This document shows, in pieces, positions 33,738 to 50,355 of a stretch of DNA of 64,000 nucleotides (position 1 is the first letter of the stretch; the number at the start of each line of letters is the position of its first letter). The DNA lies in the NCBI GenBank assembly GCA_963674735.2, contig CAXXQS010000002.1, positions 192,001 through 256,000 of the forward strand, written 5' to 3'. A model generated the notes under the pieces. It was not told the origin of the DNA, searched no databases, and worked only from the letters and a program-made list of their open reading frames with translations. Source of the DNA: Myxococcota bacterium. GTDB taxonomy: Bacteria > Myxococcota_A > SURF-8. Made by a program: the position numbers and the translations under genes.

Positions 33738-33852
33738 TGTTCCTCCTCCAATCGCTCTACGCTGGTGGTCCTAAGAAGTGATGGCCGGATCCGCTGGGCC
33801 GGACCGCTCCCAATCGAGGCACAGATACCCGTCCGGGGCCGAAAAATTAAAA

Positions 33853-34028
33853 AAAGGCCCGCCATAGCCGTGTGGTCGCAGTAACTTTAGCCCGTTCGAA
33901 CTAGGTGGGTCCAACTGTGACGTTTCAGGCTGCCCTTGCGGGTCTGCTCACGACGCCAGGAAGCCGGTCCCGGGCTTTATGCTATCGAGCGTTAGTTCAA
34001 TCTGCCCATCACGAACCAAGCAGGCTTT
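33853..34028 (-). ncRNA. ssrS: Probable 6S RNA
   Basis: About 176 nt; ends pair (AAAGCCUGC / GCGGGCCUUU); contains blocks I recognise from 6S RNAs (GUUCGUGAU, UUGAAC, GCCUGAA, CCCACC, CACGGC); has its own promoter and a 3' U-run. Confidence 0.7.
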
Positions 34029-34033
34029 CTCCA

Positions 34034-35426: not shown

Positions 35427-35502
35427 AGGCGGGTAGCTCAGCGGTTAGAGCACCGGCCTTACAAGCCGGGGGTCCGCGGTTCAAATCCGCGTCCGCCTAC
35501 CA
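35427..35502 (+). tRNA. tRNA-Val(TAC)
   Basis: Full cloverleaf: AGGCGGG/TCCGCCT acceptor, CCGGC-CTTACAA-GCCGG anticodon arm, TTCAAAT T-loop, CCA end. Confidence 0.97.
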
Positions 35503-35543
35503 AGCCTTTTCGAGTCGAGCGGTCAGTGGTTCTTTTCAAATAC

Positions 35544-35620
35544 GGGGTGGTAGTTAAGTTGGTTATAACGCCGGCCTGTCAAGCCGGAGGCCGGGGGTTC
35601 GAGTCCCCTCCACCCCGCCA
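35544..35620 (+). tRNA. tRNA-Asp(GTC)
   Basis: GGGGTGG/CCACCCC acceptor, CCGGC-CTGTCAA-GCCGG anticodon arm, TTCGAGT T-loop, CCA end. Confidence 0.97.
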
Positions 35621-36156: not shown

Positions 36157-39100
36157 ATGATCGACTCAAAGCGCCATAAAGATACGTCCTACAAAGCCGT
36201 GTGGAATTGGTTCCGATATTTCATCAAATACTTCATCCCCGGCATGATCTTGGTTTCCCTTTTCCTCTACCTGGCGTTTTTCGTTCTTTTTCCACTTATC
36301 GAATCGACCAGCATCCAAAAAAAGCGCGAGATGATTCAAAATCAGGTTTCAATCGTTTATTCGATCGTGAATCATTACCACACGCGTTCCCAACAGGGGA
36401 AATTAAGCGAAGAAGAAGCGAAAAAAACGGCGATGGAGACGGTTCGAGTTCTTCGTTATGGGGCTGACAAGCGTGACTATTTTTGGATCAACGACATGAA
36501 CGGCGTCATGTTGATGCATCCCTACCGACCAAACCTCGAAAACCGGAACCTCCTTGAAATGCAGGACAAGGGCGGTAAAAAGCTATTCCGTGAATTCGTA
36601 AATGTGGCAAAAATGAAGGGAGATGGCTTCGTTGATTATTATTGGCAACACAACGACGATGCCAGCTTCATAACGAAAAAAATCTCTTATATCAGCCGAT
36701 TTGAGCCCTGGGACTGGGTTATCGGGACCGGGGTTTACATCGAGGATGTCAAAGCCGAATTGTCTATTTTAACATCCAAAATATTGAGCTACCTGTATTT
36801 CAGCATCTTTATGACGATAGCGATTTCACTATTCACAAGCATCCAAACGCTGCGATTACAGAAAAGGCGCGACGAGTATCAAGAACAAATTATCGAAATG
36901 GAACAATGGTACCGCGCCATTCTCCTCCACATCGATGAAGGAATCGTAGTCTGCAATCTTTCCGAACAGATTCTATTTATGAACGCCAAAGCAAAATCCC
37001 TCCTCGGTGTCAACGAGCAAGACACAGGCGACAAGAAATTGAACGATCTCTTCTCGATAACGACTAACGAGGGCGATAAGACGGTGGTTTTGCCGGTCGG
37101 CGAAATGAAAACGGTCGAACGAAAATACATCGTAGCTCGTCGAAAAACGAGCCGTGGCGATTTGAGTTACCTCGCGTTCAACCTGGCTCGATTGGACGCC
37201 GACCTTTTCGGTACGGAAATGGTCATCATTGCCATAAGCAACGTCACAAATCAAACGAGTGTAATGCTTGAAACGGAGGAATATGCAAAGCAATTGGATT
37301 CCATCATCGAATCCAGAACGGAACAGCTGGTTAAAGCCAACAACGACCTGAAGCTTGCCCAGCTTGCCATCAATTCCGCCGCAGACGGCATTTCATTCAT
37401 CGATGCCACAGGAAGCGTCATTTCCGCCAACGACGCCGAAGAAACCATTTTAGGGATCCCAACCGAAACGATCGTGGGTTCGATACATCCCGCGATTCAA
37501 CAGGCCCTCTCCACAGAGGAAAGTATCGCGTCCAGCCTATCCAATAGCAGCGTATGGCGAGGATCGATCACATACAAACAAAAAGACAAGGAAGACAAGC
37601 CGCTGGAACTGACCCTGACCCCGATTCCGAAACGAATCGGGGATCGGCAGACCTTCATGCTCATCGAAAAAGACGTTACCGAAAAGCGCCGGCAGGAGGA
37701 ATCGCTTTACAGACTAAAGGCCGCCTTCGAACAATCGCTGGACGGAGTAGCCATATTGGATATGGAAATGAAAATACTGTTCGCCAATCAAGCGTGGGCC
37801 GTCCTCCATAACCAACAATCCGACTCCCTCATCGGTCAAGATTACCGGAGCTTTCATACCGACGAAGAAAATGAATCGGAGATGTGCGTCTTTTTTGATG
37901 AATTGCACAAAAAGGGAAATGCAACCGGGGAAATCACCCTCCGGGGCCAGGATGGTCACGATATACCGACAAGCAGCACCGCCACCATTATCTATAACTC
38001 AGAAATGAAACCCAGCGCCATACTGGTTATCACAAAAGACGTGCGAGAACAAAAAGAATACGAAGCGGCCCTTAAACAATCCGAATTGAAATTTCGAAGC
38101 TTATTCGACTACTCCAGCGACGCTATTTTTATCCTTGAAGATGGGCAGATCGTTGATTGTAACAATAAATCCTTGGAAATGTTTCGAGTCGATTCCCATG
38201 AAAGTATGCTCGAATATTCCGTAGAAGATCTATCCTTCCCCTATCAGATTGGAGAAGAACCGGCATCCATTAAAAAGACTGAACATATCGAAGCGGCCAT
38301 TCGGAATGGAAACGAAAGCTTTGAGTGGTCTCACCGTCGGACAAACGGAGAAGTTTTTCAAGCCGATGTCCATTTGAGCCCTATTCGGATCGGCGATCGA
38401 GTTTTTGTCCAGGGAGTCATTCGTGATTTGACGGAAAAACACCGGATGGAAATGGAGCTGCGGCAGGCTCAGAAGCTCGAATCCATCGGTCAGCTTGCAG
38501 CCGGAATCGCGCACGAGATCAACACGCCGATTCAATTCATCGGCGATAGCATCTTTTACCTCGAAGATGCATGTAAGGATGTAACAAACCTGGTCGCGAG
38601 ATATAAAGGCCTTCTGGGAAATGTTGACGACGCAGAAGAAAGAAAAGCCATACGGGAGCTTGAAGAAGAAATCGATGAAGACTGCGATCTGGAATTTCAT
38701 ACCGAAGAAACGCCGAATGCGTTTGAGCGTATCAAACGCGGGACCGACCGTGTCACGGCCATCGTTCGAGCTATGAAAGAGTTCGCGCACCCCGATTCTT
38801 CCGAAATGGAATTTTCCGACCTCAATCGTCTCATCGAAACGACAGTGACGGTCGCTACAAACGAGTTTAAATACGTGGCGGAATTGAAACTCGAACTCAA
38901 CGAGGTCCCGCAGGTCTACTGTCATCGCGGAGAAATCAACCAGGTGTTGATCAACCTCATTGTCAATGCAGCGCATAGTATCAAAGACAAGAGTGAAACA
39001 TCCGATGGGATGGGGCTCATCAGGATCCGCACGGAAGAGATCGACGGTTTCGTGCAAGTCTTAATTTCAGACACGGGAATGGGAATCCCGGAAGGAATCC

Positions 39101-39279
39101 AGGAACGTATTTTCGATCCGTTTTTCACCACCAAGAAAGTGGGCGTGGGAAGCGGTCAGGGGTTGGCGATCAGTCGAAACCTCATCGTTGAAAAGCACAA
39201 AGGGAAGCTTTTTTTCACAACCAAGAAGAACGAAGGAACCACATTCCACATTCATCTCCCGTTGGAGAAATCACCATGA
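36157..39279 (+). CDS. Sensor histidine kinase (single Cache + multiple PAS + HisKA/HATPase)
   Basis: DYFWIND...MLMHP..P.L...F.PWDWVIGTGVY Cache domain; QKLESIGQLAAGIAHEINTP H-box; NLIVNA, DTGMGI, FDPFFTTK, GSGQGL. Confidence 0.95.
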   Translation: MIDSKRHKDTSYKAVWNWFRYFIKYFIPGMILVSLFLYLAFFVLFPLIESTSIQKKREMIQNQVSIVYSIVNHYHTRSQQGKLSEEEAKKTAMETVRVLRYGADKRDYFWINDMNGVMLMHPYRPNLENRNLLEMQDKGGKKLFREFVNVAKMKGDGFVDYYWQHNDDASFITKKISYISRFEPWDWVIGTGVYIEDVKAELSILTSKILSYLYFSIFMTIAISLFTSIQTLRLQKRRDEYQEQIIEMEQWYRAILLHIDEGIVVCNLSEQILFMNAKAKSLLGVNEQDTGDKKLNDLFSITTNEGDKTVVLPVGEMKTVERKYIVARRKTSRGDLSYLAFNLARLDADLFGTEMVIIAISNVTNQTSVMLETEEYAKQLDSIIESRTEQLVKANNDLKLAQLAINSAADGISFIDATGSVISANDAEETILGIPTETIVGSIHPAIQQALSTEESIASSLSNSSVWRGSITYKQKDKEDKPLELTLTPIPKRIGDRQTFMLIEKDVTEKRRQEESLYRLKAAFEQSLDGVAILDMEMKILFANQAWAVLHNQQSDSLIGQDYRSFHTDEENESEMCVFFDELHKKGNATGEITLRGQDGHDIPTSSTATIIYNSEMKPSAILVITKDVREQKEYEAALKQSELKFRSLFDYSSDAIFILEDGQIVDCNNKSLEMFRVDSHESMLEYSVEDLSFPYQIGEEPASIKKTEHIEAAIRNGNESFEWSHRRTNGEVFQADVHLSPIRIGDRVFVQGVIRDLTEKHRMEMELRQAQKLESIGQLAAGIAHEINTPIQFIGDSIFYLEDACKDVTNLVARYKGLLGNVDDAEERKAIRELEEEIDEDCDLEFHTEETPNAFERIKRGTDRVTAIVRAMKEFAHPDSSEMEFSDLNRLIETTVTVATNEFKYVAELKLELNEVPQVYCHRGEINQVLINLIVNAAHSIKDKSETSDGMGLIRIRTEEIDGFVQVLISDTGMGIPEGIQERIFDPFFTTKKVGVGSGQGLAISRNLIVEKHKGKLFFTTKKNEGTTFHIHLPLEKSP

Positions 39280-40490
39280 CGGAAAAGCCGCAGATCCTTT
39301 TTGTTGATGACGAAAAGGGAATTCTGGATAGTATCAAAGTCGTTTTACGCAAATACCGGAAAATTTGGGAAGTTTTACTGGCTTCCAGCATGGAGGAAGC
39401 GCTGGAAATCGTTGAATCGAATAACATCGATATTCTCATTTCCGATTTCCGTATGCCGGGAAAATCCGGACTCGATCTTCTTGAACTGATACGGAAAGAT
39501 CATCCGAATATTATTCGTATCATTCTTACGGGACAAATAGAGACGGAACAAACCATCAGGTCCATCTCCACCGCGCAGCAATTTATCAGCAAGCCAATCC
39601 GCTCCGACGAGCTCACCTCGATCCTCGAACGTAATGTCGCGTTACTTAAGTACGTTGACAATCCTTATCTGAAAAAATCGATCGGGTTTATCGGAAATCT
39701 ACCATCCAAGACAAGCACCTACAACAAATTAACATATCTGCTTGGAAAACCGACGGCCACGATAACGGATATGGCTTCCGTCGTTGAACACGATCTGGCC
39801 ATAACGGCCAAAATCCTGCAAATTATCAACTCCTCCTTTTTCGGTTTGGTCAAAGAAGTCACCAATATCAAAACGGCCGTTACACTTCTTGGAGAAAATG
39901 TTCTTCGCAGTATCGTTCTCAGCGAAGAAGTGAAGAAAGTCCTCGGTACGGAGAAATTTCCAGACGGCTGGTCGATGAATGCGCTGCATGAGCACAGTAT
40001 AAGATCGGCGATTATGGCTTCTAAAATTGCCCGAACCCCTGCTGAAAAAGAACAGGCTTTCATTTCAGGTTTCTTGCACGATTTCGGCATTCTTATCATC
40101 GCCTGCAAGTTCCCGGACTTGTTCAAAGAGCATGACCAATTATCGAAAAAGCGCTCCTGTCCGATAAGCGATGTTGAATACGAAAAATTCGGAATATCGC
40201 ATGCCGAGATCGGCGCTTACATGTTGGGACTTTGGGGACTGCCCTTTGATATTATCGAAGCCATTGCTCACCACCACACCATCATGAACTACCCGATGGA
40301 AGAGCTAGGCCTGGTCGATTTGGTCTTTTTGGCGGATATCGCATCCAAAGTTTCTGCCGATGATCCCGGTTGGGAAAACGTTTTTGATGAGCGGTACGAA
40401 GAACGATTGAAAAAGCTATCGAATAAGGACGAAGCAATTATCGCAATTGATAAGCTTAAAAGCATCATCAGCCATGGAGTTTCCGAATGA
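39276..40490 (+). CDS. Response regulator with an HDOD output domain
   Basis: FVDDE/SDFRMP receiver; DLAITAKILQIINSSFFG, LHDFG, HAEIGAYMLGLWGLP, HH. Confidence 0.9.
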   Translation: MTEKPQILFVDDEKGILDSIKVVLRKYRKIWEVLLASSMEEALEIVESNNIDILISDFRMPGKSGLDLLELIRKDHPNIIRIILTGQIETEQTIRSISTAQQFISKPIRSDELTSILERNVALLKYVDNPYLKKSIGFIGNLPSKTSTYNKLTYLLGKPTATITDMASVVEHDLAITAKILQIINSSFFGLVKEVTNIKTAVTLLGENVLRSIVLSEEVKKVLGTEKFPDGWSMNALHEHSIRSAIMASKIARTPAEKEQAFISGFLHDFGILIIACKFPDLFKEHDQLSKKRSCPISDVEYEKFGISHAEIGAYMLGLWGLPFDIIEAIAHHHTIMNYPMEELGLVDLVFLADIASKVSADDPGWENVFDERYEERLKKLSNKDEAIIAIDKLKSIISHGVSE

Positions 40491-41632
40491 AAACAACCAA
40501 GCTGGAGGTTTTGTGTGTCGATGATGAAATCGAGGTTCTCAATGGACTGAGAATGATCCTGCGTCGAAACTACAACGTTACCGTGACCGAAAGTGCGCAC
40601 CAGGCCCTGGAGTACTTGAAAACCGAAAAATACAGCATCATCCTATCGGATATGCGCATGCCGGAAATGAACGGGGCGGACTTCTTGGCCAAGGCGAAAC
40701 GAATTTCGCCGAATAGCGTCCGCATGCTGCTCACCGGCTATAGTGACCTGAACGCCGCGATCGATGCGATCAACAAAGGTCAGGTTTATCGATTTTTGAC
40801 AAAGCCCTGTCCGCCGGATCAACTGTTGAATATTTTCGATGATGCCGCCCATCAATACTCATTGATCACCGCCGAAAAGGAATTGCTGCATAAGACCTTA
40901 AAAGGCAGCGTGACGGTTCTGGCTGAAATTCTTTCGATTGTCGACCCGGAAACAGCGGACGCCGTATCCGGGCTGCGTTCGGTCCTGGTCAGCATCGCCA
41001 AGGAACTGGAGTATGCCAAGCAATGGGATCTGGAAATAGCCTATCTCATTTCCAGTATCGGTATCGTAACGATTCCATCGGAGTTGCGCCAGAAAGCGAA
41101 ATCGAATGAAGCGCTGACTGAGGATGAAGCCGATCTTATAGGTCGTGTTCCGGAGATCGGAGCCAAGCTGATTTCTCACATTCCCCGCATGGAAACGGTA
41201 GCCGAGATTGTGCGGTATCAAGCGAAAAATTTCGATGGATCGGGCTTCCCGCGCGACTCCGTAAGAGGAGACAAGATTCCTCTCGGGTCGAGAATCCTGC
41301 GTATTCTTAAAGACTACGATTTGGCGGAGAACATTCAAAAAACGGATGAGTGGTACAAACGGCTTAAAACAGATGAGACTACATACGATCCGGATGTAGT
41401 GAAGGTCTTTATTAAATATGCCAATCTTCTACCCACAAGTTTTGAACTCGTTGAGATCGATCCAAGACGCCTGCGCACTGGGGATCGCTTGATAGATCCC
41501 GTTACAACCGACAAAGGAAGGCTTCTTCTCGCTGCCGGAATGCGAATCAATCAACCCATACTGGAAAAATTGCACCATTACGCGTCGATCGTCGAACTAC
41601 AGGGACAAGTCAGGGTTGAACGCCCCAAATAG
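40487..41632 (+). CDS. Response regulator with a degenerate HD-GYP-like domain
   Basis: Receiver (SDMRMP, TKP); SSIG replaces HDIG and YQAKNFDGSGFP replaces HHE.WDG.GYP. Confidence 0.85.
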   Translation: MKTTKLEVLCVDDEIEVLNGLRMILRRNYNVTVTESAHQALEYLKTEKYSIILSDMRMPEMNGADFLAKAKRISPNSVRMLLTGYSDLNAAIDAINKGQVYRFLTKPCPPDQLLNIFDDAAHQYSLITAEKELLHKTLKGSVTVLAEILSIVDPETADAVSGLRSVLVSIAKELEYAKQWDLEIAYLISSIGIVTIPSELRQKAKSNEALTEDEADLIGRVPEIGAKLISHIPRMETVAEIVRYQAKNFDGSGFPRDSVRGDKIPLGSRILRILKDYDLAENIQKTDEWYKRLKTDETTYDPDVVKVFIKYANLLPTSFELVEIDPRRLRTGDRLIDPVTTDKGRLLLAAGMRINQPILEKLHHYASIVELQGQVRVERPK

Positions 41633-41672
41633 AGAATGGCGAGCGTACTAAACCGAGATTTAGGAAACATGA

Positions 41673-42767
41673 ATGACCATCACAGCTAACATCGTTTTTG
41701 TCGATGACGATAACGAAATTCTTGATTCCATCAAAGTCATGCTCCGCAAGCAAACAAACTTCTGGAATATCGAGTATTTCAATGATCCCCTGGCCGCACT
41801 TGAGCGCATCAGGCACGGAGACGTCGATATCGTGGTCTCAGACATGTCGATGCCGGGAAAATCGGGATTGGATTTATTGCACGAAATCAAGAAGGATGAG
41901 GCGTCAAAATATAGCGCGGTCATCATCCTTACCGGACTCAATGATCGGAGCCTGAAGCGGGAAGCGCTGGCTGCCGGGGCGGCAGACCTGCTCAATAAGC
42001 CCATCGTCTTGGAAGATTTGCTGGCTCGGCTTGTCAATACCTTGAAAATGAAGCGCTACGAAGACGATCTTCGCGACAGCAACCTCACGCTTGATAATAT
42101 GGTAAGGGTGCGGACACTGCAACTGGAACAGTCCCGAATCGCCACGGTCATACACCTTGCCAAGGCAGGGGAATATCGAGATGAGGAAACCGGAAAACAT
42201 ATCATTCGAGTCGGCAGTTATGCGCGTTGTATTTGCGAACGCCTTGGAATGGAAAAGACGGACTGTGATGTGGTGGCGGTGGCGGCCCCCTTGCATGACA
42301 TTGGAAAAATCGGTATTCCCGACCGTATCCTTCTTAACCCGGGCAAGCTCGATGCCGAGGAATGGAAGATCATGCGTACCCATACTCAAATCGGATACAA
42401 CATATTGAACACCAATTTGATCAACATGGAACGGCTCATTCCCGATATGAAATGGAAAGACGGCGACATGTTCGATTATTATCCCGTCATTAATGCCGCT
42501 TCGGAAATCGCATTGAATCATCACGAGCGCTTGGATGGCAAGGGCTACCCCAATGGTTTAAGGGGCACGGCTATTCCCCGTAAAGCCGTCATCGTCGCCA
42601 TCAGCGACATGTACGATGCCTTAAGAAGTGAAAGACCCTACAAAAAGGGATTTTCCCATCAAAAAGCCATGGAAATCATTGCGGAAGACACGGGACATTT
42701 CGACCCGGAAGTTTGTGAGGCTTTTTTCGATCTTTCAGACGAAATCAGTTTCTTGTTTGACCTGTAA
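41673..42767 (+). CDS. Response regulator with an HD-GYP c-di-GMP phosphodiesterase domain (RpfG-like)
   Basis: EYRDEETGKHI.RV, LHDIGKIGIPD, HHERLDGKGYP, DMYDAL.S.RPYK. Confidence 0.92.
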   Translation: MTITANIVFVDDDNEILDSIKVMLRKQTNFWNIEYFNDPLAALERIRHGDVDIVVSDMSMPGKSGLDLLHEIKKDEASKYSAVIILTGLNDRSLKREALAAGAADLLNKPIVLEDLLARLVNTLKMKRYEDDLRDSNLTLDNMVRVRTLQLEQSRIATVIHLAKAGEYRDEETGKHIIRVGSYARCICERLGMEKTDCDVVAVAAPLHDIGKIGIPDRILLNPGKLDAEEWKIMRTHTQIGYNILNTNLINMERLIPDMKWKDGDMFDYYPVINAASEIALNHHERLDGKGYPNGLRGTAIPRKAVIVAISDMYDALRSERPYKKGFSHQKAMEIIAEDTGHFDPEVCEAFFDLSDEISFLFDL

Positions 42768-42933: not shown

Positions 42934-43380
42934 TCACATAACACCAGCCGCGCAGTTGGCATACTCGGTGCTGCACTGGGTAGCCGCCGCCGCATCATAG
43001 TTGTCGGCATCCGGACAGGCTTCATCCCAGCAATCCAAAAAGTCCAGCACACAGTCACGCGCATTATCGCACATGTCGCCCCCGGCACCGCCGATTTCGT
43101 CACAGGCCACCGTCATCTGGTCATAGGCGGTTTTGATTTGGCAAGCTCCCTCGTCGCAGATGTTGCCTTCGACTCCGTCGCAGTCGTAGTCGGAAAAGAG
43201 ATCATCGCCGTCATCACCATCCGCATCATCACCATCGGCATCATCGCCATCGGCATCATCGCCGTCGCTGCTGTCATCCCCGTCGCTCTCATCGTCGTCA
43301 TCCCCCATGCACGCTGACAACGCCAACATCAGCGCCAAGGCCATCAGCAGCACCAACATCCATTTCCACGATTTTTTCAT
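42934..43380 (-). CDS. Small Cys-rich acidic lipoprotein with DGDDA repeats
   Basis: GGAGGA RBS; lipobox LSAC; ten further Cys residues. Confidence 0.8.
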   Translation of the reverse strand: MKKSWKWMLVLLMALALMLALSACMGDDDDESDGDDSSDGDDADGDDADGDDADGDDGDDLFSDYDCDGVEGNICDEGACQIKTAYDQMTVACDEIGGAGGDMCDNARDCVLDFLDCWDEACPDADNYDAAAATQCSTEYANCAAGVM

Positions 43381-43756
43381 GTCATCCTCCGCTTTTCGGG
43401 TTCCAACAGCCGATCCACCGGCACATTTCACCCCCTGAAACGTCACGGTTACATCTGCGACCGGCTTCTATCGCCCTGTAGTTTGTCTTGATGCAAATAG
43501 ATTAGCATAAATTATAGAACTATTCCATGTTTTAAAGTGCGATATAAATAAAAGCAGGTCGAATGATCGCCCTCGCCCGCCGGGAGCCGTCGGTCCGTCT
43601 TCGGCGCAGATGCAACACAGACGATTGCCGAGAACCCTTCAAGATGGGTGGTATGGGCTAAGCGAAGAGAACGGAGCTTGCCTTTGCCACCCCAAAACCA
43701 AACGGGTTGCCATATCCTGTGCTGCACCCATTCCGAATCCCGTATATGCTAAGTCC

Positions 43757-43785
43757 TTGAGAAACAAGCCGAAACCTGCTAGGCT
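43757..43785 (+). promoter_or_regulatory. Putative sigma70-type promoter of the nitrogenase-like operon
   Basis: TTGAGA-N17-TAGGCT with an extended -10 TG. Confidence 0.45.
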
Positions 43786-43826
43786 GAGAGCCGTTTAGAC
43801 AGCCCAATACGGCAAAAAGGGACGGT

Positions 43827-44642
43827 ATGAACCACATCGCGATTTACGGCAAGGGCGGCAGCGGAAAATCGATGATCGCCAGCAATCTTTCGGTCCAGTT
43901 CGCTCGACTGGGACTGGCCACTACGCAAATCGGTTGCGACCCCAAACACGACTCCACCTTATGCCTGACCGGTGGACGCGCCATCCCTACCGTTATTTCA
44001 CTCATGGAGAAAAGTCGCGACCTGCTACCGCCCATCGAGCAGGTGGTGGTCGAAGGCGTGCACGGCATCCGCTGCATCGAGGCGGGCGGTCCGGAACCGG
44101 GGGTCGGCTGCGCCGGGCGCGGCATTGTTTCGGTTTTCCAGATTCTCAAGCGCCATCACTACCTCGACGACTTCGAGGCGGTGGTCTTGGACGTTCTGGG
44201 CGACGTGGTCTGCGGCGGCTTCGCCGCTCCGCTGATGCACGGTTTCGCCAGCCGGGTGCTGATCGTGGTGAGCGACAACCTGATGTCGCTTTACGCCGCC
44301 AACAACATAGCCAAGGCCGTGCGACGCTTCACGCGCAACGGTGCACGCCTGGTGGGTCTGGTGGGCAACAACCTGCACGACCCCGACGCCGAAGCCATGC
44401 TCACACGCTTCGCCGAGCGGCTGTCCACCCGGCTTTTAACCATCGTCCCCCACGATCCGTTGATCTTCGACGCCGAGCGTCGACGGCTGACCGTCTCGGA
44501 TCACGCTCCCGATTCCGCCAGCGCATCTCGTTTCCGCGAGTTGGCCCAGGAAATACGCAATCAAGATACCGTCGAACATGCAACTCCAACCCCCATGGAC
44601 GACGAAGAGCGCGAAAGCTTCTTCCGTGAACAGGGACGGTAA
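43827..44642 (+). CDS. Nitrogenase iron-protein-like ATPase (NifH/BchL/CfbC superfamily)
   Basis: YGKGGSGKS, GCDPKHDST, EAGGPEPGVGCAGRG, DVLGDVVCGGFAAP, MSLYAANNI. Confidence 0.95.
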   Translation: MNHIAIYGKGGSGKSMIASNLSVQFARLGLATTQIGCDPKHDSTLCLTGGRAIPTVISLMEKSRDLLPPIEQVVVEGVHGIRCIEAGGPEPGVGCAGRGIVSVFQILKRHHYLDDFEAVVLDVLGDVVCGGFAAPLMHGFASRVLIVVSDNLMSLYAANNIAKAVRRFTRNGARLVGLVGNNLHDPDAEAMLTRFAERLSTRLLTIVPHDPLIFDAERRRLTVSDHAPDSASASRFRELAQEIRNQDTVEHATPTPMDDEERESFFREQGR

Positions 44643-44649
44643 GGCGGCC

Positions 44650-46758
44650 ATGGCTTCCCCGCAACGACGCGATCCCATTCCCTTGCTCGAACGCTTCGCG
44701 CTATTGGCGCAGGAACTGGAGGCGCGCGCGGTCTTTCCACAGGCCGACGGGGCACTTTTCATCTTGGTTCGTGAAACCGAACCCAAGGCCTGGTTGCGTT
44801 GGGAACCCGATGCCGACCACAACGATCCCCGCTTGGACGAATTGCCGGGACGCCTGCACAGCGCCCAACTGACACCGGCGGCGGTCGCCAAACTGGCGGC
44901 GCGCCTCGTGCACGCCGCAAAAAAAGACGCTTTCCGCTTTCTGCGCGTTGCCCATGAAGCCGAGATCCCCATCGAACTCAACCGCTGGTTTGTCGCGCGT
45001 CACCTCACCCATTATCTGGAGGAAGGCATAAGCCGGTGGGGCCCCTATCGGCTGGAACCGGTGAAAGAGGTGGGCGACGCTATCGAATTGGTCTTTTCCT
45101 CGATCGACGGAGAAACACCCCCGTTACACTTCTCCATCAGTGCATCAGAATCCGACCCCGTCGAGAAAACCGGCGCTTCAGCGGCTGCAAGTCCGCTCAC
45201 GTTACGGTGTTTGGCCGAGGATTCCGACGACGCCTCTTTTTCGCGTTCCCCCGAGCGCTACCTGCGTTACGCCCTGGCACGCAGCTTCGTTCCGGGCCAG
45301 GCCCTGCATCGTCCGACAGACGATTCCGGCCCCGAAAACGAAACCGAGAAACCGGCCTCGCCTTACAACCAGGGTTTTTTAGCCCCCGACCACCGGGATT
45401 ACATTCCGATGACCTGCTTTTTCGCCCTGAAAAAAGATCCCGGAGTGATGGATATCCTATCGAGCTTAAGCGACGACGGCTTACACCTGCGCACGCTTCA
45501 CGTGGGCAGCACGGCCTGTCTGCTGGCTCCGACCGTGGACATCCGCGACGACCGGCGCTTTGTTTCCGCCCGCTTCATGGGAAGCAGCTTCAAACCCGAC
45601 CCGGTGATGGATGCGGTCGAAATGGGCGAAATCGATGTCATCGTGGGCGACGACGCGAGCTTGAGACGCAGCCTGGAGACGCTCATCGATCTTCCCGACA
45701 TCCACGCGGTGGTCTTGATTGTGCAGTGCCTGGCCGATTTCGTCGGTTTGGATCTCGACAACATCGTGGCTGAAGCAACGGCCGCAGGTGCTCCACCCAT
45801 CATCCGTTACACCGACACCCCCGCCATCCAGCGCGAGCCATACGACCGCTTCTGGCACGAAATCTTGCAGTTGGCCGACCCCAACCTCGCACCCGACCCG
45901 AAACAAGTCAACCTGGTCGGGTTCGCCCCGCGTGGGTCCAGGGCGGATAGGGAATTGACCGCCGATCTGGCCGCATTGAACCTTACGGTCAACGCCCGCT
46001 TCATCCCCTCGCTGAAAGCCGCCGAGATACGACGCTTCGGATCGGCCGCACTCAACGTTCTGTTCAACGAGCGCATCACTCGCGATGAAATCGGCGCTCC
46101 CCTCGACGCCTACGCCGCCGCAAGCGGTCGGGACATCCTCGCACCGGTTCCCCCCATCGGTCCCGACGCGACCCAGACTTTTTACCGCGCCATTCTCACC
46201 GCCTGCGATCTGCCCGACGACGGCCGGGTCGCCGCGCTCTGGGAGCCGTTCAAAGCCGACTGGGAAAAAGGCCGCGCGAGCGCCGCACAGCACGAAATCG
46301 CCATCATCGTGGACGCGCATACCTCCCGCTACTTGCGCGAACCGGACGAACTGTACGGCATTCCACTCCCGGTACGCTTGGCGGAAATGGGCTTTGCTTT
46401 GCGTCTGGTGCTGGCCGAATGGGAGGATGCAGGCAGCTATCGCGACGCCGAGTTCGCGCTCGAATCCCTGCGGGACACCCTCCTGCAAGCAGGCGCGGAT
46501 GTGATACTCGACCGGGTGGCCGGGCCCGATGAACTGGCGGCACGCATGCGCGACTGGCCCGCCAGCCTGATCTTCAGCGATTTCCCCGGCGATCGCCGCA
46601 TCGTGGCCGCCGGTAAAACGCCTTTCTCCATCCGCGCCTTCGAGTTCGGTTTTGCCGGTGCTCTGCGCAGCCAACGCCACCTGCTGCGTCTGGCGCATAG
46701 CGGCTACGCTCGGGCTTTTGGTCCGCTTGCGCTTTCCCGAAACGAGGAGACGCCATGA
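44650..46758 (+). CDS. Divergent nitrogenase component-1-type oxidoreductase subunit with a long N-terminal extension
   Basis: MGEIDVIVG, QCLADFVGLDLD, VNLVGF, PIG..AT..F and FGFAG motifs echo NifD/E, BchN and CfbD; starts 8 nt after the NifH-like stop. Confidence 0.7.
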   Translation: MASPQRRDPIPLLERFALLAQELEARAVFPQADGALFILVRETEPKAWLRWEPDADHNDPRLDELPGRLHSAQLTPAAVAKLAARLVHAAKKDAFRFLRVAHEAEIPIELNRWFVARHLTHYLEEGISRWGPYRLEPVKEVGDAIELVFSSIDGETPPLHFSISASESDPVEKTGASAAASPLTLRCLAEDSDDASFSRSPERYLRYALARSFVPGQALHRPTDDSGPENETEKPASPYNQGFLAPDHRDYIPMTCFFALKKDPGVMDILSSLSDDGLHLRTLHVGSTACLLAPTVDIRDDRRFVSARFMGSSFKPDPVMDAVEMGEIDVIVGDDASLRRSLETLIDLPDIHAVVLIVQCLADFVGLDLDNIVAEATAAGAPPIIRYTDTPAIQREPYDRFWHEILQLADPNLAPDPKQVNLVGFAPRGSRADRELTADLAALNLTVNARFIPSLKAAEIRRFGSAALNVLFNERITRDEIGAPLDAYAAASGRDILAPVPPIGPDATQTFYRAILTACDLPDDGRVAALWEPFKADWEKGRASAAQHEIAIIVDAHTSRYLREPDELYGIPLPVRLAEMGFALRLVLAEWEDAGSYRDAEFALESLRDTLLQAGADVILDRVAGPDELAARMRDWPASLIFSDFPGDRRIVAAGKTPFSIRAFEFGFAGALRSQRHLLRLAHSGYARAFGPLALSRNEETP

Positions 46759-48053
46759 AGCTGACTCCCAGCTATCTCGACGGCGCGTATCTCGCCCTCA
46801 ACGCGCAACCGGGCCTGCGGGCATTTGTCGATGCGCCGCGCTGCGAGGTCAACCGCGCCGACAAGATCACCACCTTACATGATCGCATGAGCGACTTACT
46901 GGGTATGGGGCCCTACGACCTCAGCCGCCGCCTGTTCACCGGAACCTGGCGCTTCGGCTTGGACATCCAGGGACCCGACGAAGCCATTGCCCGCACCCTC
47001 AAGCATTTGGCCGGCGCCGACCCGCACAGTCCGATTCTGCTCTTTCGCGGACACCTGTCGCTGTTAATCAACACCGACCTCGACGGAGTCGCGCTTGAAA
47101 GCCTGGATACCGAAAAGACTCCGCCCCTGATTTCCGTGGCACACCATTCGCTCGACGACGACTGGCTCACCGGCTACCGGGCCGTCCACGACGCCGTTTT
47201 GGACTGGATGCTTCGCAACGCCTCACCCACCCCGCCAGCCGGACCGCCCCGTCCCTTGATCGGCGGTTTCGGGCTCTTGCGTCGGGAAGGGGACGAACAC
47301 GGCAACGTGGACGAGGTTCTGCGTCTGTGGCGGGCGCTCGGGCTGGAGACAGACCCGATATGGCCTTTTTCCGGCGGACCGCTCGATTCAGCCGGATTGA
47401 CCTCCGACTCGCCCCGTTTCATCTTCCCCTACAGCGGCGATTATCAAGCTCATCGTACAGCAAACGACGACGGGACCGACACGCATCTGCCCTTCCCCAT
47501 CGGCTTGTCGGCCACGGCTGCTTTGCTGCGCGGGCTAGGCAAACGTTTCGGACGCGAAACCGAAGCCGAGTCGCTGATTGCGCGGGAAACCGAAACCCTG
47601 CGGCAAGCCATCGAAACCACGGCCGTCGAGCGGCTGGCCGGACGCGGGGTCGCCGTCTTGGCCGATCCCACGCGCGCCATCGGACTTTGTGCGGCCATGC
47701 GGGATCTGGGGCTGACGGTCCCGCTCGTGTTGAGCCTGGGTGCCATCGAAGCGGACGAAGCCGAGAATGCTTTCGGCGATGCGACGGTTCTGATCAATCC
47801 CAGTTTTTCGGACGCCGTCGCGCAACTCAAAACCGCCGCCGCAACCGGGGAACTGGACTGGGTGGTGGGAGCCAGCTGGCTCCGCGATCCGGCCCGCGAG
47901 GCGGGTCTGGCCTATGTGGAATGCGGCTACCCCGCTTACACCGAACATTTTATCGGTCCCATGCCATACATGGGATACGCGGGACTTTTACGCCTGGCCG
48001 AACGTCTGGCCAACAGCCAGAGCGGCCTCCTCGATCCAAACGGGAACGCTTGA
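46755..48053 (+). CDS. Second divergent nitrogenase component-1-type subunit
   Basis: VDAPRC, LINTDLDG, DWLTGY, PIGLSAT...LR.LG..FG, GYP...H.....PYMGY.G; ATGA overlap. Confidence 0.75.
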   Translation: MKLTPSYLDGAYLALNAQPGLRAFVDAPRCEVNRADKITTLHDRMSDLLGMGPYDLSRRLFTGTWRFGLDIQGPDEAIARTLKHLAGADPHSPILLFRGHLSLLINTDLDGVALESLDTEKTPPLISVAHHSLDDDWLTGYRAVHDAVLDWMLRNASPTPPAGPPRPLIGGFGLLRREGDEHGNVDEVLRLWRALGLETDPIWPFSGGPLDSAGLTSDSPRFIFPYSGDYQAHRTANDDGTDTHLPFPIGLSATAALLRGLGKRFGRETEAESLIARETETLRQAIETTAVERLAGRGVAVLADPTRAIGLCAAMRDLGLTVPLVLSLGAIEADEAENAFGDATVLINPSFSDAVAQLKTAAATGELDWVVGASWLRDPAREAGLAYVECGYPAYTEHFIGPMPYMGYAGLLRLAERLANSQSGLLDPNGNA

Positions 48054-48066
48054 TGGAGAAGGTATC

Positions 48067-48801
48067 GTGACGGAAACCCCGCTTCCGGTCGAGGAAGTCA
48101 GCGATTACGAACGTGAAGCCCATGACTTCGCCCATCGTCACCTGGCCTTGCCCTGGCGCGCTCTGGTGGCACGGCTATCGCGTCTGGAAGCCGGTGAATC
48201 GCTCCGGGAGGACGAAGCACGCTTCGAGGTGATCGGGTGGCCCCGCCCGCTTTCGGCACATCGCTTCCACCGGGCCATGCGCTCCGGTTCCTGCCGTCGC
48301 TTGTTCGGTCCCAATCCCACGCGCCTGCTGGTGGTGCTCAACCACAAACGCACACGTGTTTTGCATGTCCTGGCCGACCGCAACGAAAACGGCGTTTTCG
48401 TCGAGCACGTCAGTCTGCGTTCGCGAAAAGAAGAACCTTGGGCAGGTGAACTGCTGCGCTTCATCCGCGAGGGACGTCCCGAGCTGGCCCAGCGTCTGGC
48501 GACCGACTGGTTGCCCGAACAGCCCGAAACCCGCGACTGGAAACTCGGCCTGCTGATCGTCACCAACTGGGATTGCTTTATGCTGCTGAAAAAGGCCTGG
48601 GACAAGGCCGGGGACGGCAAGATAACGGCTCTCCCTTTTTGGCTGATGGAAGCCCTGGTCAAAATGGAGCAGAGCGGGGCTTTACAGATCGAGCCGCCGG
48701 TGCCGGTGGAGCGCTTGCGACGCCGCCTGACGCCGCTTTTGCGCCTGCTGCTTCCCTCCATTCGTCTCAGTGGCTACGCCGCCCGCCTGTGGCCGCTTTA
48801 A
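48067..48801 (+). CDS. Hypothetical protein, probably the fourth gene of the nitrogenase-like operon
   Basis: GGAGAAGG RBS and GTG start 13 nt after the upstream stop; no recognisable motif. Confidence 0.55.
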   Translation: MTETPLPVEEVSDYEREAHDFAHRHLALPWRALVARLSRLEAGESLREDEARFEVIGWPRPLSAHRFHRAMRSGSCRRLFGPNPTRLLVVLNHKRTRVLHVLADRNENGVFVEHVSLRSRKEEPWAGELLRFIREGRPELAQRLATDWLPEQPETRDWKLGLLIVTNWDCFMLLKKAWDKAGDGKITALPFWLMEALVKMEQSGALQIEPPVPVERLRRRLTPLLRLLLPSIRLSGYAARLWPL

Positions 48802-48856: not shown

Positions 48857-48882
48857 AAAAAACCCCGCCGAAAACGACGGGG
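48857..48882 (-). terminator. Terminator of the DUF1015 gene
   Basis: CCCCGUCG-UUUU-CGGCGGGG followed by U6. Confidence 0.7.
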
Positions 48883-48938
48883 CGTGTCAGAAACCAGATC
48901 ACCGACACGAAGTCGGTGGGTCGAGCTTGTCAAATCGC

Positions 48939-50174
48939 TCACTTCAAGAAGTGCACCACCAAACCCGAGCGCAGCTTGGGCTCGAACCAGGTGGACTTGG
49001 GCGGCATGATCTGCCCCGCATCGGCGATGGCCATGAGTTGCTCCATGGTGGTGGGATGCAGGGCGAAGGCCACTTCCCAGCCCTCGGACACACGTTTTTC
49101 AAGTTCCTTCAAGCCACGGATACCGCCCACGAAATCGATGCGTTTATCGGTGCGCGGATCGGCGATGCCCAAAAGCGGGTCGAGTAGATTGTGCTGCAGG
49201 ATGGAAACGTCGAGGCACCCCACCGGGTCGTTTTCATCGAAGCTGCCGGGTTTGGCCGTCAAGCGGTACCAGCGACCATCGAGGTATAGGCCGAAGTCGT
49301 GCACGCGCCCGGGCTTTGGCGCATCGGTTTCGCTCAGTTCGAAACGCTCCGCTACGGCTTTCAAAAACGCGTCTTTCGACAAACCATTGAGGTCTTTCAC
49401 CACGCGGTTGTAATCGAGGATCTTGAGCTGGTTGTGGGGGAACAAAACGGTCAGGAAGTAATTGTACTCTTCCTCGCCGGTGTGCTGCGGATTGGCGGCG
49501 CGGCGCAGGGCGCGTACACGACTCCCCGATTTCGCACGGTGATGGCCATCGGCCACATAGGTGGGATCGATGGCGGCAAAAGCGGCGATCAACTCGTCGA
49601 TCAACGCATCATCGTCGATCACCCACAGGGTGTGACGAATACCGTCCTCCGCCGTGAAATCATAAGTGGGCTCTCCCGCACTGGCACGCGCCATCAGCGT
49701 ATCAACCGCGGCACTCGCTTTGTAAGCCAAGAACACCGGACCGGCGTTGCAGTCGGTCACATCCACGTGCCTGGCACGATCGTCTTCCTTTTCCTTGCGT
49801 GTCTTTTCATGCTTTTTGATATGGTCGTCGTCGTAATCGTCCACCGCGGCGGCCACCACCAGACCGATCTGGGCATGTTCGCCCATCACCTGTTTGTACG
49901 CGTAAAGACAAGGCTTTTCATCGGGCACTAGCAAGCCGTCCTGAACGAAACGCGTGATATTGGCCGTGGCCTGGGCATACACGCGTTCGTCATACAGATC
50001 AATCGCCGGGTCGAGATCGATTTCCGGCTTGTTGACATGCAAAAAGGTGTTCGGCTTGCCTGCCGCCATACGGCGCGCTTCATCGGAATTGATGACATCG
50101 TAGGGAGGCGAAGCCACTTCGGCCGCCAGGTGCTGGGGGGGACGATAACCGGTAAACGCTTTGATTTTCGCCAT
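48939..50174 (-). CDS. DUF1015 family protein
   Basis: SPPYDV, IKKHEKTR, YVADGHHR, ILDYNRV, MPPKSTWFEPKLRSGL; start ATG 50174 after GGAGG. Confidence 0.92.
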   Translation of the reverse strand: MAKIKAFTGYRPPQHLAAEVASPPYDVINSDEARRMAAGKPNTFLHVNKPEIDLDPAIDLYDERVYAQATANITRFVQDGLLVPDEKPCLYAYKQVMGEHAQIGLVVAAAVDDYDDDHIKKHEKTRKEKEDDRARHVDVTDCNAGPVFLAYKASAAVDTLMARASAGEPTYDFTAEDGIRHTLWVIDDDALIDELIAAFAAIDPTYVADGHHRAKSGSRVRALRRAANPQHTGEEEYNYFLTVLFPHNQLKILDYNRVVKDLNGLSKDAFLKAVAERFELSETDAPKPGRVHDFGLYLDGRWYRLTAKPGSFDENDPVGCLDVSILQHNLLDPLLGIADPRTDKRIDFVGGIRGLKELEKRVSEGWEVAFALHPTTMEQLMAIADAGQIMPPKSTWFEPKLRSGLVVHFLK

Positions 50175-50355
50175 TGGATTCCTCCGGGTGAAAGGTTGCC
50201 CGTCGTGCTGCGCGCAGAATAACGAAAGCCGCTCGGCAAGGCAAGCAAAAGGCGAACGAACCGCCAATACCACCTTCTCACCTCACTCCTTCCGACCACG
50301 CAGAGTGTCAAAAACCCTTGACCGCGCCTGACGCGCTGCGATATAGTGAGAAACG

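What the first reader, a model, noticed from the sequence alone, without database searches (positions are those of the whole stretch)
43757..48801. Orphan nitrogenase-like enzyme system that fits none of Nif, DPOR/COR or Cfb
Seen: a NifH-type ATPase with both 4Fe-4S Cys, coupled to two highly divergent component-1 subunits and a fourth unknown gene. The large subunit has three suitably ordered Cys (MTCFF, STACLL, VQCLAD). The small one has a single N-terminal Cys (DAPRC) and lacks the TC..IG.D Cys. I see no FeMo-cofactor ligand motifs, no nifB/E/N, bch or cfb neighbours, and a sigma70-like rather than sigma54 promoter. Established: this superfamily performs ATP-driven low-potential reductions (N2, tetrapyrroles, methylthio-alkanes). 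I recall divergent paralogs being reported from uncultured lineages such as Elusimicrobia without a known substrate. Inference: a DPOR-like single-cluster reductase acting on an unknown substrate.
Basis: partly seen in the sequence, partly recalled or inferred. Interest (0 to 1): 0.85.

Follow-up and report, generated by a model that had tools for sequence, protein, structure and literature searches.

The report
Group VI nitrogenase-like reductase operon
This operon encodes an ATP-driven iron-sulfur reductase from a nitrogenase-like family that was already reported (first from Elusimicrobia), is widespread, and still has no known substrate, so it is a real but not an orphan system.

Summary
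The four genes are real and tightly packed: H1 43827-44642, D1 44650-46758, K1 46755-48053, X1 48067-48801. H1 is an intact NifH-type ATPase. D1 and K1 are very divergent component-1 proteins.

The system lies outside Nif, DPOR/COR, Cfb and Mar-like reference clades. It is not an orphan.
- The same genome holds two more D/K sets.
- 46 of 401 sampled genomes of its phylum carry the D family.
- 566 cluster representatives match the D profile at E<=1e-30.
- The same D/K family sits in an Elusimicrobia locus where 8 of 10 tested neighbours are radical SAM proteins. That fits the published "Group VI" nitrogenase-like group.

Only two D cysteines and one K cysteine are conserved in the family; "MTCFF" is not. 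D1 carries a ~235-aa N-terminal domain with no recognisable fold. Ten of the 150 best D relatives are NifH-D fusions. X1 is a near-orphan and not part of the conserved set.

Most likely this is an ATP-dependent reductase with simple [4Fe-4S] clusters. The substrate is unknown. It is a new member of a known but uncharacterised kind.

The parts
43487..43566 (+). AT-rich block (GC 0.28-0.30), 260-340 nt upstream of H1. It is a possible promoter region, but no consensus promoter was found.
   Evidence: Composition by script. The sigma70 scan found 0 sites. No sigma54-like match. No Rfam family in the leader. The leader fold z-score is 0.38.
43827..44642 (+). H1: NifH-type Fe-protein/ATPase, 271 aa, with P-loop, switch regions and both [4Fe-4S] cysteines (C95, C129).
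   Evidence: PF00142 at E 3.6e-81. Below all NCBIfam equivalog cut-offs. Invariant columns in alignment A4. Best solved relatives are NifH chains, E 2e-63.
44650..45354 (+). D1 N-terminal extension, about residues 1-235: two alpha+beta subdomains with no recognisable fold or Pfam family. It is shared by 65 of the 150 best family relatives.
   Evidence: No Pfam hit before residue ~308. AlphaFold2 model with pLDDT 76.4 and pTM 0.76, ordered over residues ~10-228. Foldseek found nothing at E<=0.001. VIA-align best Z is 5.3. hhalign against NifH gives probability 0.1%.
45355..46758 (+). D1 core: component-1 (NifD/BchN-like) domain. The family-conserved cysteines are C290 (NifD-C88 position, shifted by one residue) and C360 (NifD-C154 position).
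   Evidence: PF00148 at E 3.8e-20. PDB profile hits at E 3e-24 or weaker. Cys columns. Alignment to references. Tree.
46755..48053 (+). K1: component-1 (NifK/BchB/BchZ-like) subunit, 432 aa. Its start overlaps the D1 stop by 4 nt. The single conserved cysteine is C30 (DAPRC), at the NifK-C70 / BchB-D36 / BchZ-Cys position.
   Evidence: PF00148 at E 7.5e-34. C30 is invariant in 8 of 8 rows of alignment A2. Alignment to references. Tree.
48067..48801 (+). X1: 244-aa protein of unknown function. It looks coding by codon-position GC, and it is not conserved with the H-D-K set.
   Evidence: GC pattern and the GGAGAAGG motif before the GTG start. No Pfam or NCBIfam family. Only itself found in the 5.8-billion-protein search. 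One 32%-identical homologue in G003, at a place away from that genome's H-D-K genes. No cluster with any neighbour in the other loci. The model is unusable, pLDDT 45.9.
48862..48883 (-). GC-rich hairpin between X1 and the convergent DUF1015 gene. It is scored as a terminator on the minus strand and marks the end of the operon region.
   Evidence: Terminator scan. DUF1015 gene at 48939-50273 on the minus strand.

Best explanation
H1-D1-K1 is a three-component, ATP-dependent low-potential reductase of the nitrogenase-like superfamily. It belongs to the divergent group first reported from groundwater Elusimicrobia ('Group VI' NflHDK).

INFERRED MECHANISM, from homology
- An H1 dimer holds a bridging [4Fe-4S] cluster on C95 and C129.
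- On ATP hydrolysis it passes single electrons to a D1-K1 complex.
- D1-K1 carries a simple inter-subunit [4Fe-4S] cluster on D1-C290, D1-C360 and K1-C30. The fourth ligand is either non-cysteine or the non-conserved C256.
- No P-cluster or FeMo-co-type cluster is expected.
- The cluster reduces an organic substrate that is still unknown.

OTHER POINTS
- The D subunit carries a family-specific N-terminal domain of about 235 aa. I guess it is a substrate-binding or partner-binding module.
- X1 is probably a lineage-specific add-on, not a core component.
- The paralogous D3-K3 pair elsewhere in the genome has no H gene beside it. It probably uses H1.

WHAT IS SHOWN AND WHAT IS NOT
- Shown: gene content, motifs, family membership and distribution.
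- Inferred: cluster type, electron path and complex formation.
- Unknown: the substrate.
For: INTACT PARTS
- H1 has an intact P-loop, switch motifs and both cluster cysteines.
- D1 and K1 are PF00148 proteins.
- The genes overlap or abut: the D1 stop overlaps the K1 start, H1 to D1 has an 8-nt gap, and K1 to X1 has a 14-nt gap.

FAMILY MEMBERSHIP
- D and K each form one clan (both 100/98) together with the Elusimicrobia and other Myxococcota copies, apart from all references.
- For the H proteins, a tree holding all 40 family rows together is not rejected, p-AU 0.60.
- The D profile scores 211-335 bits on the Elusimicrobia locus. Profile scores on the other 77 of 80 scanned loci are at most 112 bits.
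- 8 of 10 tested neighbours at that Elusimicrobia locus are radical SAM proteins. This matches the description of Group VI loci (bioRxiv 10.1101/765248, passages read; Chem Rev PMC13474568, section 7 read).
- Those papers also report Myxococcales homologues.

SIMPLE CLUSTERS
- No NifB: 22.6 bits against a cut-off of 343.65.
- No NifEN or NifDK in the genome.
- Only two conserved Cys columns in D, 146 of 150 and 149 of 150.
- One conserved Cys in K, 8 of 8.
- These sit at the NifD-C88, NifD-C154 and NifK-C70/BchB-D36 positions.

H-D FUNCTIONAL LINK
- 10 of the 150 best D relatives carry an N-terminal NifH domain.
- One complete H-D fusion frame is present in the Elusimicrobia locus.

D1-K1 COMPLEX
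- Complex prediction on D1 236-702, K1 and a 4Fe-4S cluster gave 'weak support': score 0.59, best of 3 controls 0.00.
- The mark was reached by 58 of 80 solved complexes and 2 of 110 mismatched pairs.
- At 0.60 or under, only 7 of those 80 solved complexes and both mismatches that passed reached it.
- The runs agree in at least 41% of contacts, and the partner pLDDT is at least 79.
- NifDK and BchNB complexes are solved, so this pass may only reflect likeness to them.
Against: - No biochemical or expression datum exists for any member of this group.
- The substrate is unknown and the local gene context gives no hint. The neighbours of the H-D-K trio are not conserved in the 13 loci of the window's own order.
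- The radical SAM genes that mark the published Group VI loci are missing here. 0 of those 13 own-order loci have one, against 15 of 42 loci overall.
- D1's first conserved Cys is displaced by one residue.
- The usual third D cysteine (NifD-C62 / BchN-C26 position) is absent from most of the family. The cluster's fourth ligand, and even its presence, are therefore unproven.
- The complex prediction passed only weakly and gave no contacts.
- I could not confirm that the Elusimicrobia genome I used is one of the 22 genomes of the original paper. It is not named in the main text and supplements are closed.
- In the free H tree the family forms a basal grade, not a supported clade.
Confidence: 0.7

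Rival explanations
1. It reduces a tetrapyrrole to make a new cofactor, as the original Group VI paper proposed. It would work like DPOR, COR or CfbCD, with a single [4Fe-4S] cluster next to a bound macrocycle.
For: - All characterised single-cluster members (DPOR, COR, CfbCD) act on tetrapyrroles. This is established knowledge, reviewed in PMC13474568.
- K1-C30 sits where BchZ has Cys and BchB has Asp36.
- D keeps the two cysteines that the CfbD candidate also has in my alignment.
- Radical SAM genes with B12-binding domains flank family loci in other Myxococcota.
- The authors proposed this reading.
Against: - No tetrapyrrole gene is conserved beside the trio in any of the 42 loci clustered.
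- Genomes carry 2 to 5 very divergent copies. That suits varied substrates better than one cofactor.
- The recurring neighbours elsewhere are radical SAM, SPASM and carbamoyltransferase genes. From general knowledge, not tested here, these look more like natural-product tailoring.
- The grouping of the K family with BchN/BchY in the tree is weak (86/88) and involves long branches.
Confidence: 0.15
2. It is a tailoring reductase of a secondary-metabolite, lipid or peptide pathway. A site-differentiated 3-Cys [4Fe-4S] cluster would bind the substrate directly, and the D N-terminal domain would hold the substrate or a carrier.
For: - Only three conserved Cys ligands.
- 15 of 42 family loci have radical SAM neighbours, including B12-binding and SPASM types. 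4 loci have a carbamoyltransferase.
- There are many divergent paralogues per genome.
- N-terminal architectures are variable and include H fusions.
- The weak best Foldseek rows for the N-terminal domain are two-domain proteins from polyketide biosynthetic loci: 6v04 at E 0.01 and TM 0.20, and 4xrt.
Against: - The fold matches are below any meaningful level: Foldseek probability 0.33, VIA Z 5.1-5.3.
- No biosynthetic genes flank the window's own locus or the 12 others of its order.
- A fourth ligand may simply be a non-Cys residue, as in DPOR.
- No chemistry has been tested.
Confidence: 0.1
3. It is an anaerobic sulfur-acquisition enzyme that cleaves C-S bonds, like methylthio-alkane reductase (Mar) or isethionate reductase (Isr).
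For: - Mar and Isr are the most recently assigned nitrogenase-like functions.
- Isr is predicted to use only [4Fe-4S] clusters and is reported in Myxococcota (PMC11423573, passages read; PMC13474568).
- The best solved match of the D profile is the 519-aa chain 9d9u_A/9fmg_A titled 'Nitrogenase', E 3e-24. I take it from recall, not from the call, to be MarD.
Against: - D and K clans are separate from the three Mar-like/Nfl sets of a Rhodopseudomonas genome.
- No MarB/IsrB-type radical SAM gene and no sulfonate or sulfur transport gene lies beside the trio here.
- The P-cluster-type six-Cys set that Mar has is absent.
- No verified IsrD reference was in my tree, so Isr is excluded only by context and by the published placement of Isr close to Mar and Nfa.
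Confidence: 0.04
4. It is a degenerate or regulatory relic with no catalysis, kept beside signalling genes.
For: - Sequences are extremely divergent: 13-20% identity to reference D/K subunits.
- D1's Cys is displaced by one residue.
- Sensor kinase and response-regulator genes flank 3 or 4 of the loci, including the window.
Against: - All frames are open and have coding-type codon-position GC.
- The ATPase and cluster motifs of H are invariant in 20 of 20 sequences.
- The D and K cysteines are kept in 146-149 of 150 and 8 of 8 relatives.
- The family is maintained in 46 of 401 genomes of the phylum, often in several copies.
- The kinase adjacency is not conserved.
Confidence: 0.01

Closest known systems
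Group VI nitrogenase-like NflHDK (Meheust et al. 2020, bioRxiv 10.1101/765248; reviewed in Chem Rev 2026, PMC13474568, section 7)
   Same: - The NifH homologue has both Cys and all nucleotide motifs.
- D and K are very divergent and lack most P-cluster and all FeMo-co ligands.
- No NifB or NifEN.
- Several copies per genome.
- Reported from Elusimicrobia and from Myxococcales.
- It is the same D/K sequence family as an Elusimicrobia locus rich in radical SAM genes.
   Different: - No radical SAM gene lies near this locus or near the 12 others of its order.
- The ~235-aa N-terminal domain on D, the NifH-D fusions and the fixed 2+1 cysteine pattern are not mentioned in the passages I could read.
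DPOR (BchL/BchNB) and COR (BchX/BchYZ), Group V
   Same: - Three-component architecture.
- Expected single inter-subunit [4Fe-4S] cluster.
- K1-C30 aligns with BchB-Asp36 and the BchZ Cys.
- D C290 and C360 align with the second and third BchN cysteines.
   Different: - Far below the equivalog cut-offs.
- Separate clans in the tree.
- The first BchN cysteine position is empty in most of the family.
- No bch genes were found among the PF00148 matches in the genome.
- D has an added N-terminal domain.
[quoted passage not shown]
   Same: - H1's best NCBIfam score is on the CfbC model, 284.6 bits.
- D keeps the two cysteine positions that the CfbD candidate also has in my alignment.
   Different: - The score is below the 402-bit cut-off.
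- A K subunit is present, whereas Cfb has none (PMC11423573).
- The organism is bacterial, not a methanogen.
- H1 is outside the CfbC clade.
Mo/V/Fe nitrogenase NifHDK
   Same: - Homologous H, D and K, in the same gene order.
- NifH chains are the best solved relatives of H1, E 2e-63.
   Different: - 3 of the 6 P-cluster cysteine positions are kept.
- There is no conserved Cys/His pair for FeMo-co.
- No NifB, NifE or NifN.

Membership tests
Group VI nitrogenase-like (NflHDK) | The NifH homologue branches outside Groups I-V. | tested here: met
   In a 128-row tree rooted on BchL/ChlL/BchX, H1 sits in a 10-row clade (99) outside the clade that holds the NifH, CfbC and Mar-like references. Holding all 40 family H rows together is not rejected, p-AU 0.60. 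Part of that set was named after seeing the first tree. No published Group VI sequence set was available to me.
Group VI nitrogenase-like (NflHDK) | Same D and K family as the Elusimicrobia loci. | tested here: met
   Profile scores are 211-335 bits (D) and 275-286 bits (K) on the Elusimicrobia RBG_16_66_12 locus. They are at most 112 bits on the other 77 of 80 loci scanned. D and K each form one clan with support 100/98.
Group VI nitrogenase-like (NflHDK) | H keeps the nucleotide motifs and Cys97/Cys132. D and K lack FeMo-co ligands and part of the P-cluster cysteines. No NifB. | tested here: met
Group VI nitrogenase-like (NflHDK) | Radical SAM genes beside the nfl genes. The published range is 0 to 13 copies. 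| tested here: not met
   None within about 8-10 kb of the window locus. 0 of 13 loci of the own order have one. 15 of 42 loci overall have one. The paper allows loci without them, so this is typical of the group but not strictly defining.
Nitrogenase (Groups I-III) | Six P-cluster cysteines, the NifD Cys275/His442 pair, and NifB/NifEN. | tested here: not met
   Three of six cysteine positions are kept. The only other Cys-rich D column is at position 682, where D1 has Ala. No NifB. No NifEN.
DPOR / COR (Group V) | Scores above the BchL/N/B or BchX/Y/Z equivalog cut-offs. For DPOR, three N-subunit cysteines plus an Asp in the B subunit. | tested here: not met
   BchL 195.9 against 345, BchX 190 against 331, BchN 14 against 420, BchB 29.8 against 490, BchZ 14 against 529. 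The ligand pattern differs.
CfbCD (Group IV-B) | CfbC model cut-off reached. D acts without a K partner. | tested here: not met
   284.6 against 402 bits. A K gene is present and translationally coupled to D.
MAR / ISR (Groups IV-C, IV-F) | Clusters with MarD/IsrD. A MarB/IsrB radical SAM partner lies in the operon. | tested here: inconclusive
   It is separate from three Mar-like/Nfl sets of one Rhodopseudomonas genome, and there is no radical SAM gene in the operon. No experimentally verified MarD or IsrD sequence was in my tree.

The most novel reading that the evidence does not exclude
The nitrogenase superfamily would gain a new catalytic design. The inter-subunit [4Fe-4S] cluster has only three cysteine ligands: D-C290, D-C360 and K-C30. 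That would leave one iron free to bind the substrate directly. A dedicated N-terminal domain on D, replaced in some relatives by a fused NifH, would deliver the substrate or dock the reductase. On this reading, Group VI enzymes are ATP-driven tailoring reductases of radical-SAM-rich natural-product or cofactor pathways, with several substrate-specific copies per genome.
Probability: 0.15. Interest if true: 0.8.

Novelty: new member of a known kind. Interest (0 to 1): 0.55.

Why it matters
Group VI is the one major branch of the nitrogenase-like superfamily with no assigned reaction.

This work shows four things about it.
- It is common in Myxococcota: 46 of 401 sampled genomes.
- It has a fixed 2+1 cysteine signature.
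- It has an unrecognised N-terminal domain on D.
- It includes natural NifH-D fusions.

This genome is assembled in 3 contigs. It holds three copies without the confusing radical SAM neighbours. If the organism or a near relative is cultivable, it offers a compact three-gene target. Expression, spectroscopy and knock-out metabolomics on that target could assign the missing function.

Tried and rejected
1. N-terminal extension as a degenerate NifH domain. The extension is NifH-sized and relatives carry NifH fusions. hhalign of 65 extensions against the H alignment gave probability 0.1%, so this is rejected.

2. Fold of the N-terminal domain. Foldseek against the PDB found 0 matches at E<=0.001; the best was 6v04 at E 0.01 and TM 0.20. 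VIA-align against 48,161 chains gave a best Z of 5.3. That is below the level the tool itself calls common for models without a match. No fold is assigned. This does not show that the fold is new.

3. X1. No family. Only itself in the 5.8-billion-protein search. The Atlas best score is 0.78, below the lead level. The AlphaFold2 model from a 2-row alignment has pLDDT 45.9 and is unusable, so it was not searched.

4. Regulation. No riboswitch or other Rfam family in the leader. The leader fold z-score is 0.38. The sigma70 scan found 0 sites. No sigma54-like match.

5. Conserved neighbours in the own order. None found. The kinase/response-regulator adjacency in 3-4 loci is not conserved.

6. D1 in the word-indexed protein search. 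Only itself was found. This reflects the method, since the full HMMER search found 2569 relatives. The Atlas search with D1 gave only generic PF00148 clusters at 0.85-0.87.

7. Expression. The look-up of sequencing runs listed 3 runs from one study, and no RNA holder was listed. Read laying was not used. This says nothing about expression.

8. AU test on the full 128-row H tree. It did not finish within the time limit. I replaced it with a 67-row test.

10. Supplements of the Group VI paper (sequence set, figures S4-S6) are closed. They could confirm or contradict the membership and the claims that these features are undescribed.

11. Literature. Three searches found no paper describing the N-terminal extension or H-D fusions of this group. 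A term search of the 2026 Chem Rev main text for 'fusion', 'fused', 'N-terminal extension' and 'Myxococc' gave 0 hits.

Full report
WHAT IS THERE

The window region 43827-48801 holds four co-directional, closely packed ORFs.

H1 (43827-44642, 271 aa)
- It matches Pfam Fer4_NifH at E 3.6e-81.
- It has the P-loop GKGGSGKS, the switch motifs and both cluster cysteines, C95 and C129. These are invariant in 20 of 20 aligned relatives.

D1
- The ORF runs from 44578, but the start that fits the family alignment is ATG 44650, giving 702 aa. A database gene call (P0001) has the same length.
- Pfam Oxidored_nitro covers only the C-terminal ~430 residues, at E 3.8e-20.

K1 (46755-48053, 432 aa)
- It matches the same Pfam family at E 7.5e-34.
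- Its ATG overlaps the D1 stop.

X1
- It starts at GTG 48067 behind a GGAGAAGG motif and is 244 aa long. It has coding-type codon-position GC, while the antisense ORF does not.
- The database call P0122 has the same length.

Region boundaries
- A hairpin at 48862-48883 separates the operon from a convergent DUF1015 gene.
- Upstream lie a Cache/PAS histidine kinase and three response-regulator genes with HD-type domains.

NOT AN ORPHAN

The same genome (3 contigs, 5.26 Mb) has six PF00148 matches. They form three D/K pairs of one family, and there are two NifH-type genes.
- H2-D2-K2 lies on contig 1.
- D3-K3 lies on contig 2 with no H gene beside it.
- Identities: D1/D3 31%, K1/K3 40.5%, H1/H2 42.5%, D1/D2 24%.

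Across related genomes:
- D1 relatives occur in 11 of 41 related genomes, including 5 of 5 of the same family.
- A profile of 12 D proteins (A1) finds matches at E<=1e-40 in 46 of 401 sampled genomes of the phylum.
- Against 1.84 billion cluster representatives the same profile finds 2569 proteins at E<=1e-3, 1412 at E<=1e-10 and 566 at E<=1e-30. The best 150 all score above 300 bits.
- The phylum is probably Myxococcota. A genome flagged 'same phylum' coincides with a named Myxococcota record. One close H1 relative is named as from a deltaproteobacterial MAG.

WHICH KNOWN GROUP

H1 is below every NCBIfam equivalog cut-off: CfbC 284.6 against 402, nifH 277.7 against 394, BchL 195.9 against 345, BchX 190 against 331. 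D1 and K1 score at most 14 and 31 bits.

I scanned 80 named NifH-bearing loci from 185,579 species genomes with my D and K profiles.
- Only three loci score above 200 bits: a Myxococcales MAG, an unclassified bacterium and Elusimicrobia bacterium RBG_16_66_12.
- All the others, including Nif, Cfb and Mar-like loci, score at most 112 bits.

The Elusimicrobia contig carries three H genes with D and K genes. Of 10 neighbours tested there, 8 are radical SAM proteins.

This is the picture given for 'Group VI' nitrogenase paralogues:
- H has both Cys.
- D and K are about 23-25% identical to NifD and NifK and lack part of the P-cluster cysteines.
- There is no cofactor-assembly machinery.
- There are several copies per genome and many radical SAM neighbours.
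- Homologues occur in 14 Myxococcales and 2 Gracilibacteria genomes.
Sources: bioRxiv 10.1101/765248, passages read; Chem Rev 2026 PMC13474568, sections 2.4 and 7 read.

Trees agree.
- With most references verified by NCBIfam, the 19 family D rows form one clan and the 14 family K rows form another, both with support 100/98. Neither is nested in NifD/K/E/N, BchN/B/Y/Z, CfbD or Mar-like clades.
- In the H tree the family forms a basal grade between Group V and the rest.
- A tree that holds all 40 family H rows together is slightly better than the free one and is not rejected, p-AU 0.60.
- D1 is 13-18% identical to reference D subunits and 22-23% to the Elusimicrobia D proteins. K1 is 17-20% identical to reference K subunits and 26% to the Elusimicrobia K.

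I therefore file the operon under Group VI. There is one caveat: I could not check that my Elusimicrobia genome is among the paper's 22 genomes, because supplements are closed.

LIGANDS

Among the 150 best D relatives only two columns are cysteine-rich in the cluster region. One is at D1 position 289 (146 of 150; D1's own Cys is at 290, one residue later). The other is at 360 (149 of 150). A third Cys-rich column at 682 holds Cys in 86 of 150, and D1 has Ala there.

Aligned with references:
- D positions 289/290 and 360 are the NifD-C88 / BchN second-Cys position and the NifD-C154 / BchN third-Cys position.
- The NifD-C62 / BchN first-Cys position is empty in most of the family. It is present in one divergent subclade.
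- In K, C30 is invariant in 8 of 8 rows. It aligns with NifK-C70, BchB-Asp36 and the BchZ Cys. The NifK-C95 and C153 positions hold no Cys.

The family signature is thus 2+1 cysteines. Together with the absence of NifB and NifEN, this argues for a simple [4Fe-4S] cluster with a non-Cys or open fourth site. This is inference. No coordinates were available to me.

A complex prediction of the D1 core with K1 and a cluster gave only 'weak support':
- The score was 0.59 and the best control 0.00.
- The mark was reached by 58 of 80 solved complexes and 2 of 110 mismatched pairs.
- At 0.60 or under, only 7 of the 80 solved complexes and both mismatches that passed reached it.
- Contact agreement between runs was at least 41% and partner pLDDT at least 79.
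- The pass may merely echo the solved NifDK and BchNB complexes.

NEW ANATOMICAL POINTS

(a) D1 residues 1 to about 235 form a separate domain.
- It is shared by 65 of the 150 best relatives.
- It models with pLDDT 76.4 and pTM 0.76 as two alpha+beta subdomains.
- It has no convincing structural neighbour: Foldseek best E 0.01, VIA best Z 5.3.
- It is not a decayed NifH.

(b) Other relatives have a different ~150-aa N-terminus or none.
- 10 of the 150 carry a complete NifH domain fused in front of D.
- One of them has NifH, the extension and the core together.
- An H-D fusion frame is also present in the Elusimicrobia locus.

(c) Context splits the family.
- 15 of 42 loci examined have radical SAM neighbours, including B12-binding and SPASM types.
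- 4 loci have a carbamoyltransferase.
- 0 of the 13 loci of the window's own order have a radical SAM neighbour.

(d) X1 is not part of the conserved set.

FUNCTION

The best-supported reading is an ATP-dependent Fe-protein / catalytic-component reductase with simple clusters acting on an unknown organic substrate. I give it a confidence of 0.7.
- The published tetrapyrrole idea remains possible, but nothing in the contexts I saw favours it.
- A natural-product or cofactor tailoring role with a substrate-binding 3-Cys cluster is the boldest reading that is not excluded.
- Sulfur-acquisition and relic readings are unlikely.

VERDICT

'Outside Nif, DPOR/COR and Cfb' is right. 'Orphan' is wrong.

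It is a new member of a known but functionally unassigned group. The interest is moderate: the group's reaction is an open question, and this compact, multi-copy Myxococcota version gives a clean target for testing it.

Noticed in passing
G000 contig 1, 1576938-1581329 (minus strand), and contig 2, 756998-760380 (plus strand); loci L040 and L041: There are two further paralogous sets of the same family in the same genome: H2-D2-K2, and D3-K3 without an H gene. D3 and K3 are the sister paralogues of D1 and K1 (100/97 and 100/100 in the tree).
   Followed up: partly
Proteins P0181, P0220, P0254, P0165, P0252, P0265, P0222, P0214, P0271, P0233; locus L180, minus-strand frame of 769 aa: These are natural fusions of a complete NifH-type domain to the N-terminus of the D-like subunit, 775 to 1039 aa long. 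One (P0165) has NifH, the N-terminal extension and the core together. I found no mention of such fusions in the texts I could read.
   Followed up: partly
Loci L228, L230, L234, L235, L236, L028 (Myxococcota relatives): Family loci outside the window's order are flanked by B12-binding radical SAM genes, SPASM radical SAM genes and, in 4 loci, a NodU/CmcH-type carbamoyltransferase. This looks like biosynthetic gene clusters.
   Followed up: partly
window 36157-42767: A sCache/PAS histidine kinase (1040 aa) is followed by three response-regulator genes with HDOD or HD-type domains. GC here is 0.46-0.48. The adjacent nfl operon is at 0.62-0.64 and the contig at 0.575, so there are two composition jumps within 10 kb.
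   Followed up: no
window 42934-43446 (minus strand): A 170-aa ORF with coding-like codon-position GC lies divergent from H1. It has no Pfam family.
   Followed up: no
window 33852-34029 (minus strand) and 35427-35617 (plus strand): A 6S RNA gene (64.4 bits) and two tRNA genes.
   Followed up: no
window 55108-60027 (minus strand): A very long ORF (1639 aa) downstream of gyrA. It was not examined.
   Followed up: no
L182 and L185 (genome G045, contigs 89 and 352): A divergent basal subclade of the family keeps the first D cysteine (CTL.G motif, as in BchN and CfbD) and a canonical-looking H.G.GC motif in K. It may represent the ancestral four-Cys state of the group.
   Followed up: no
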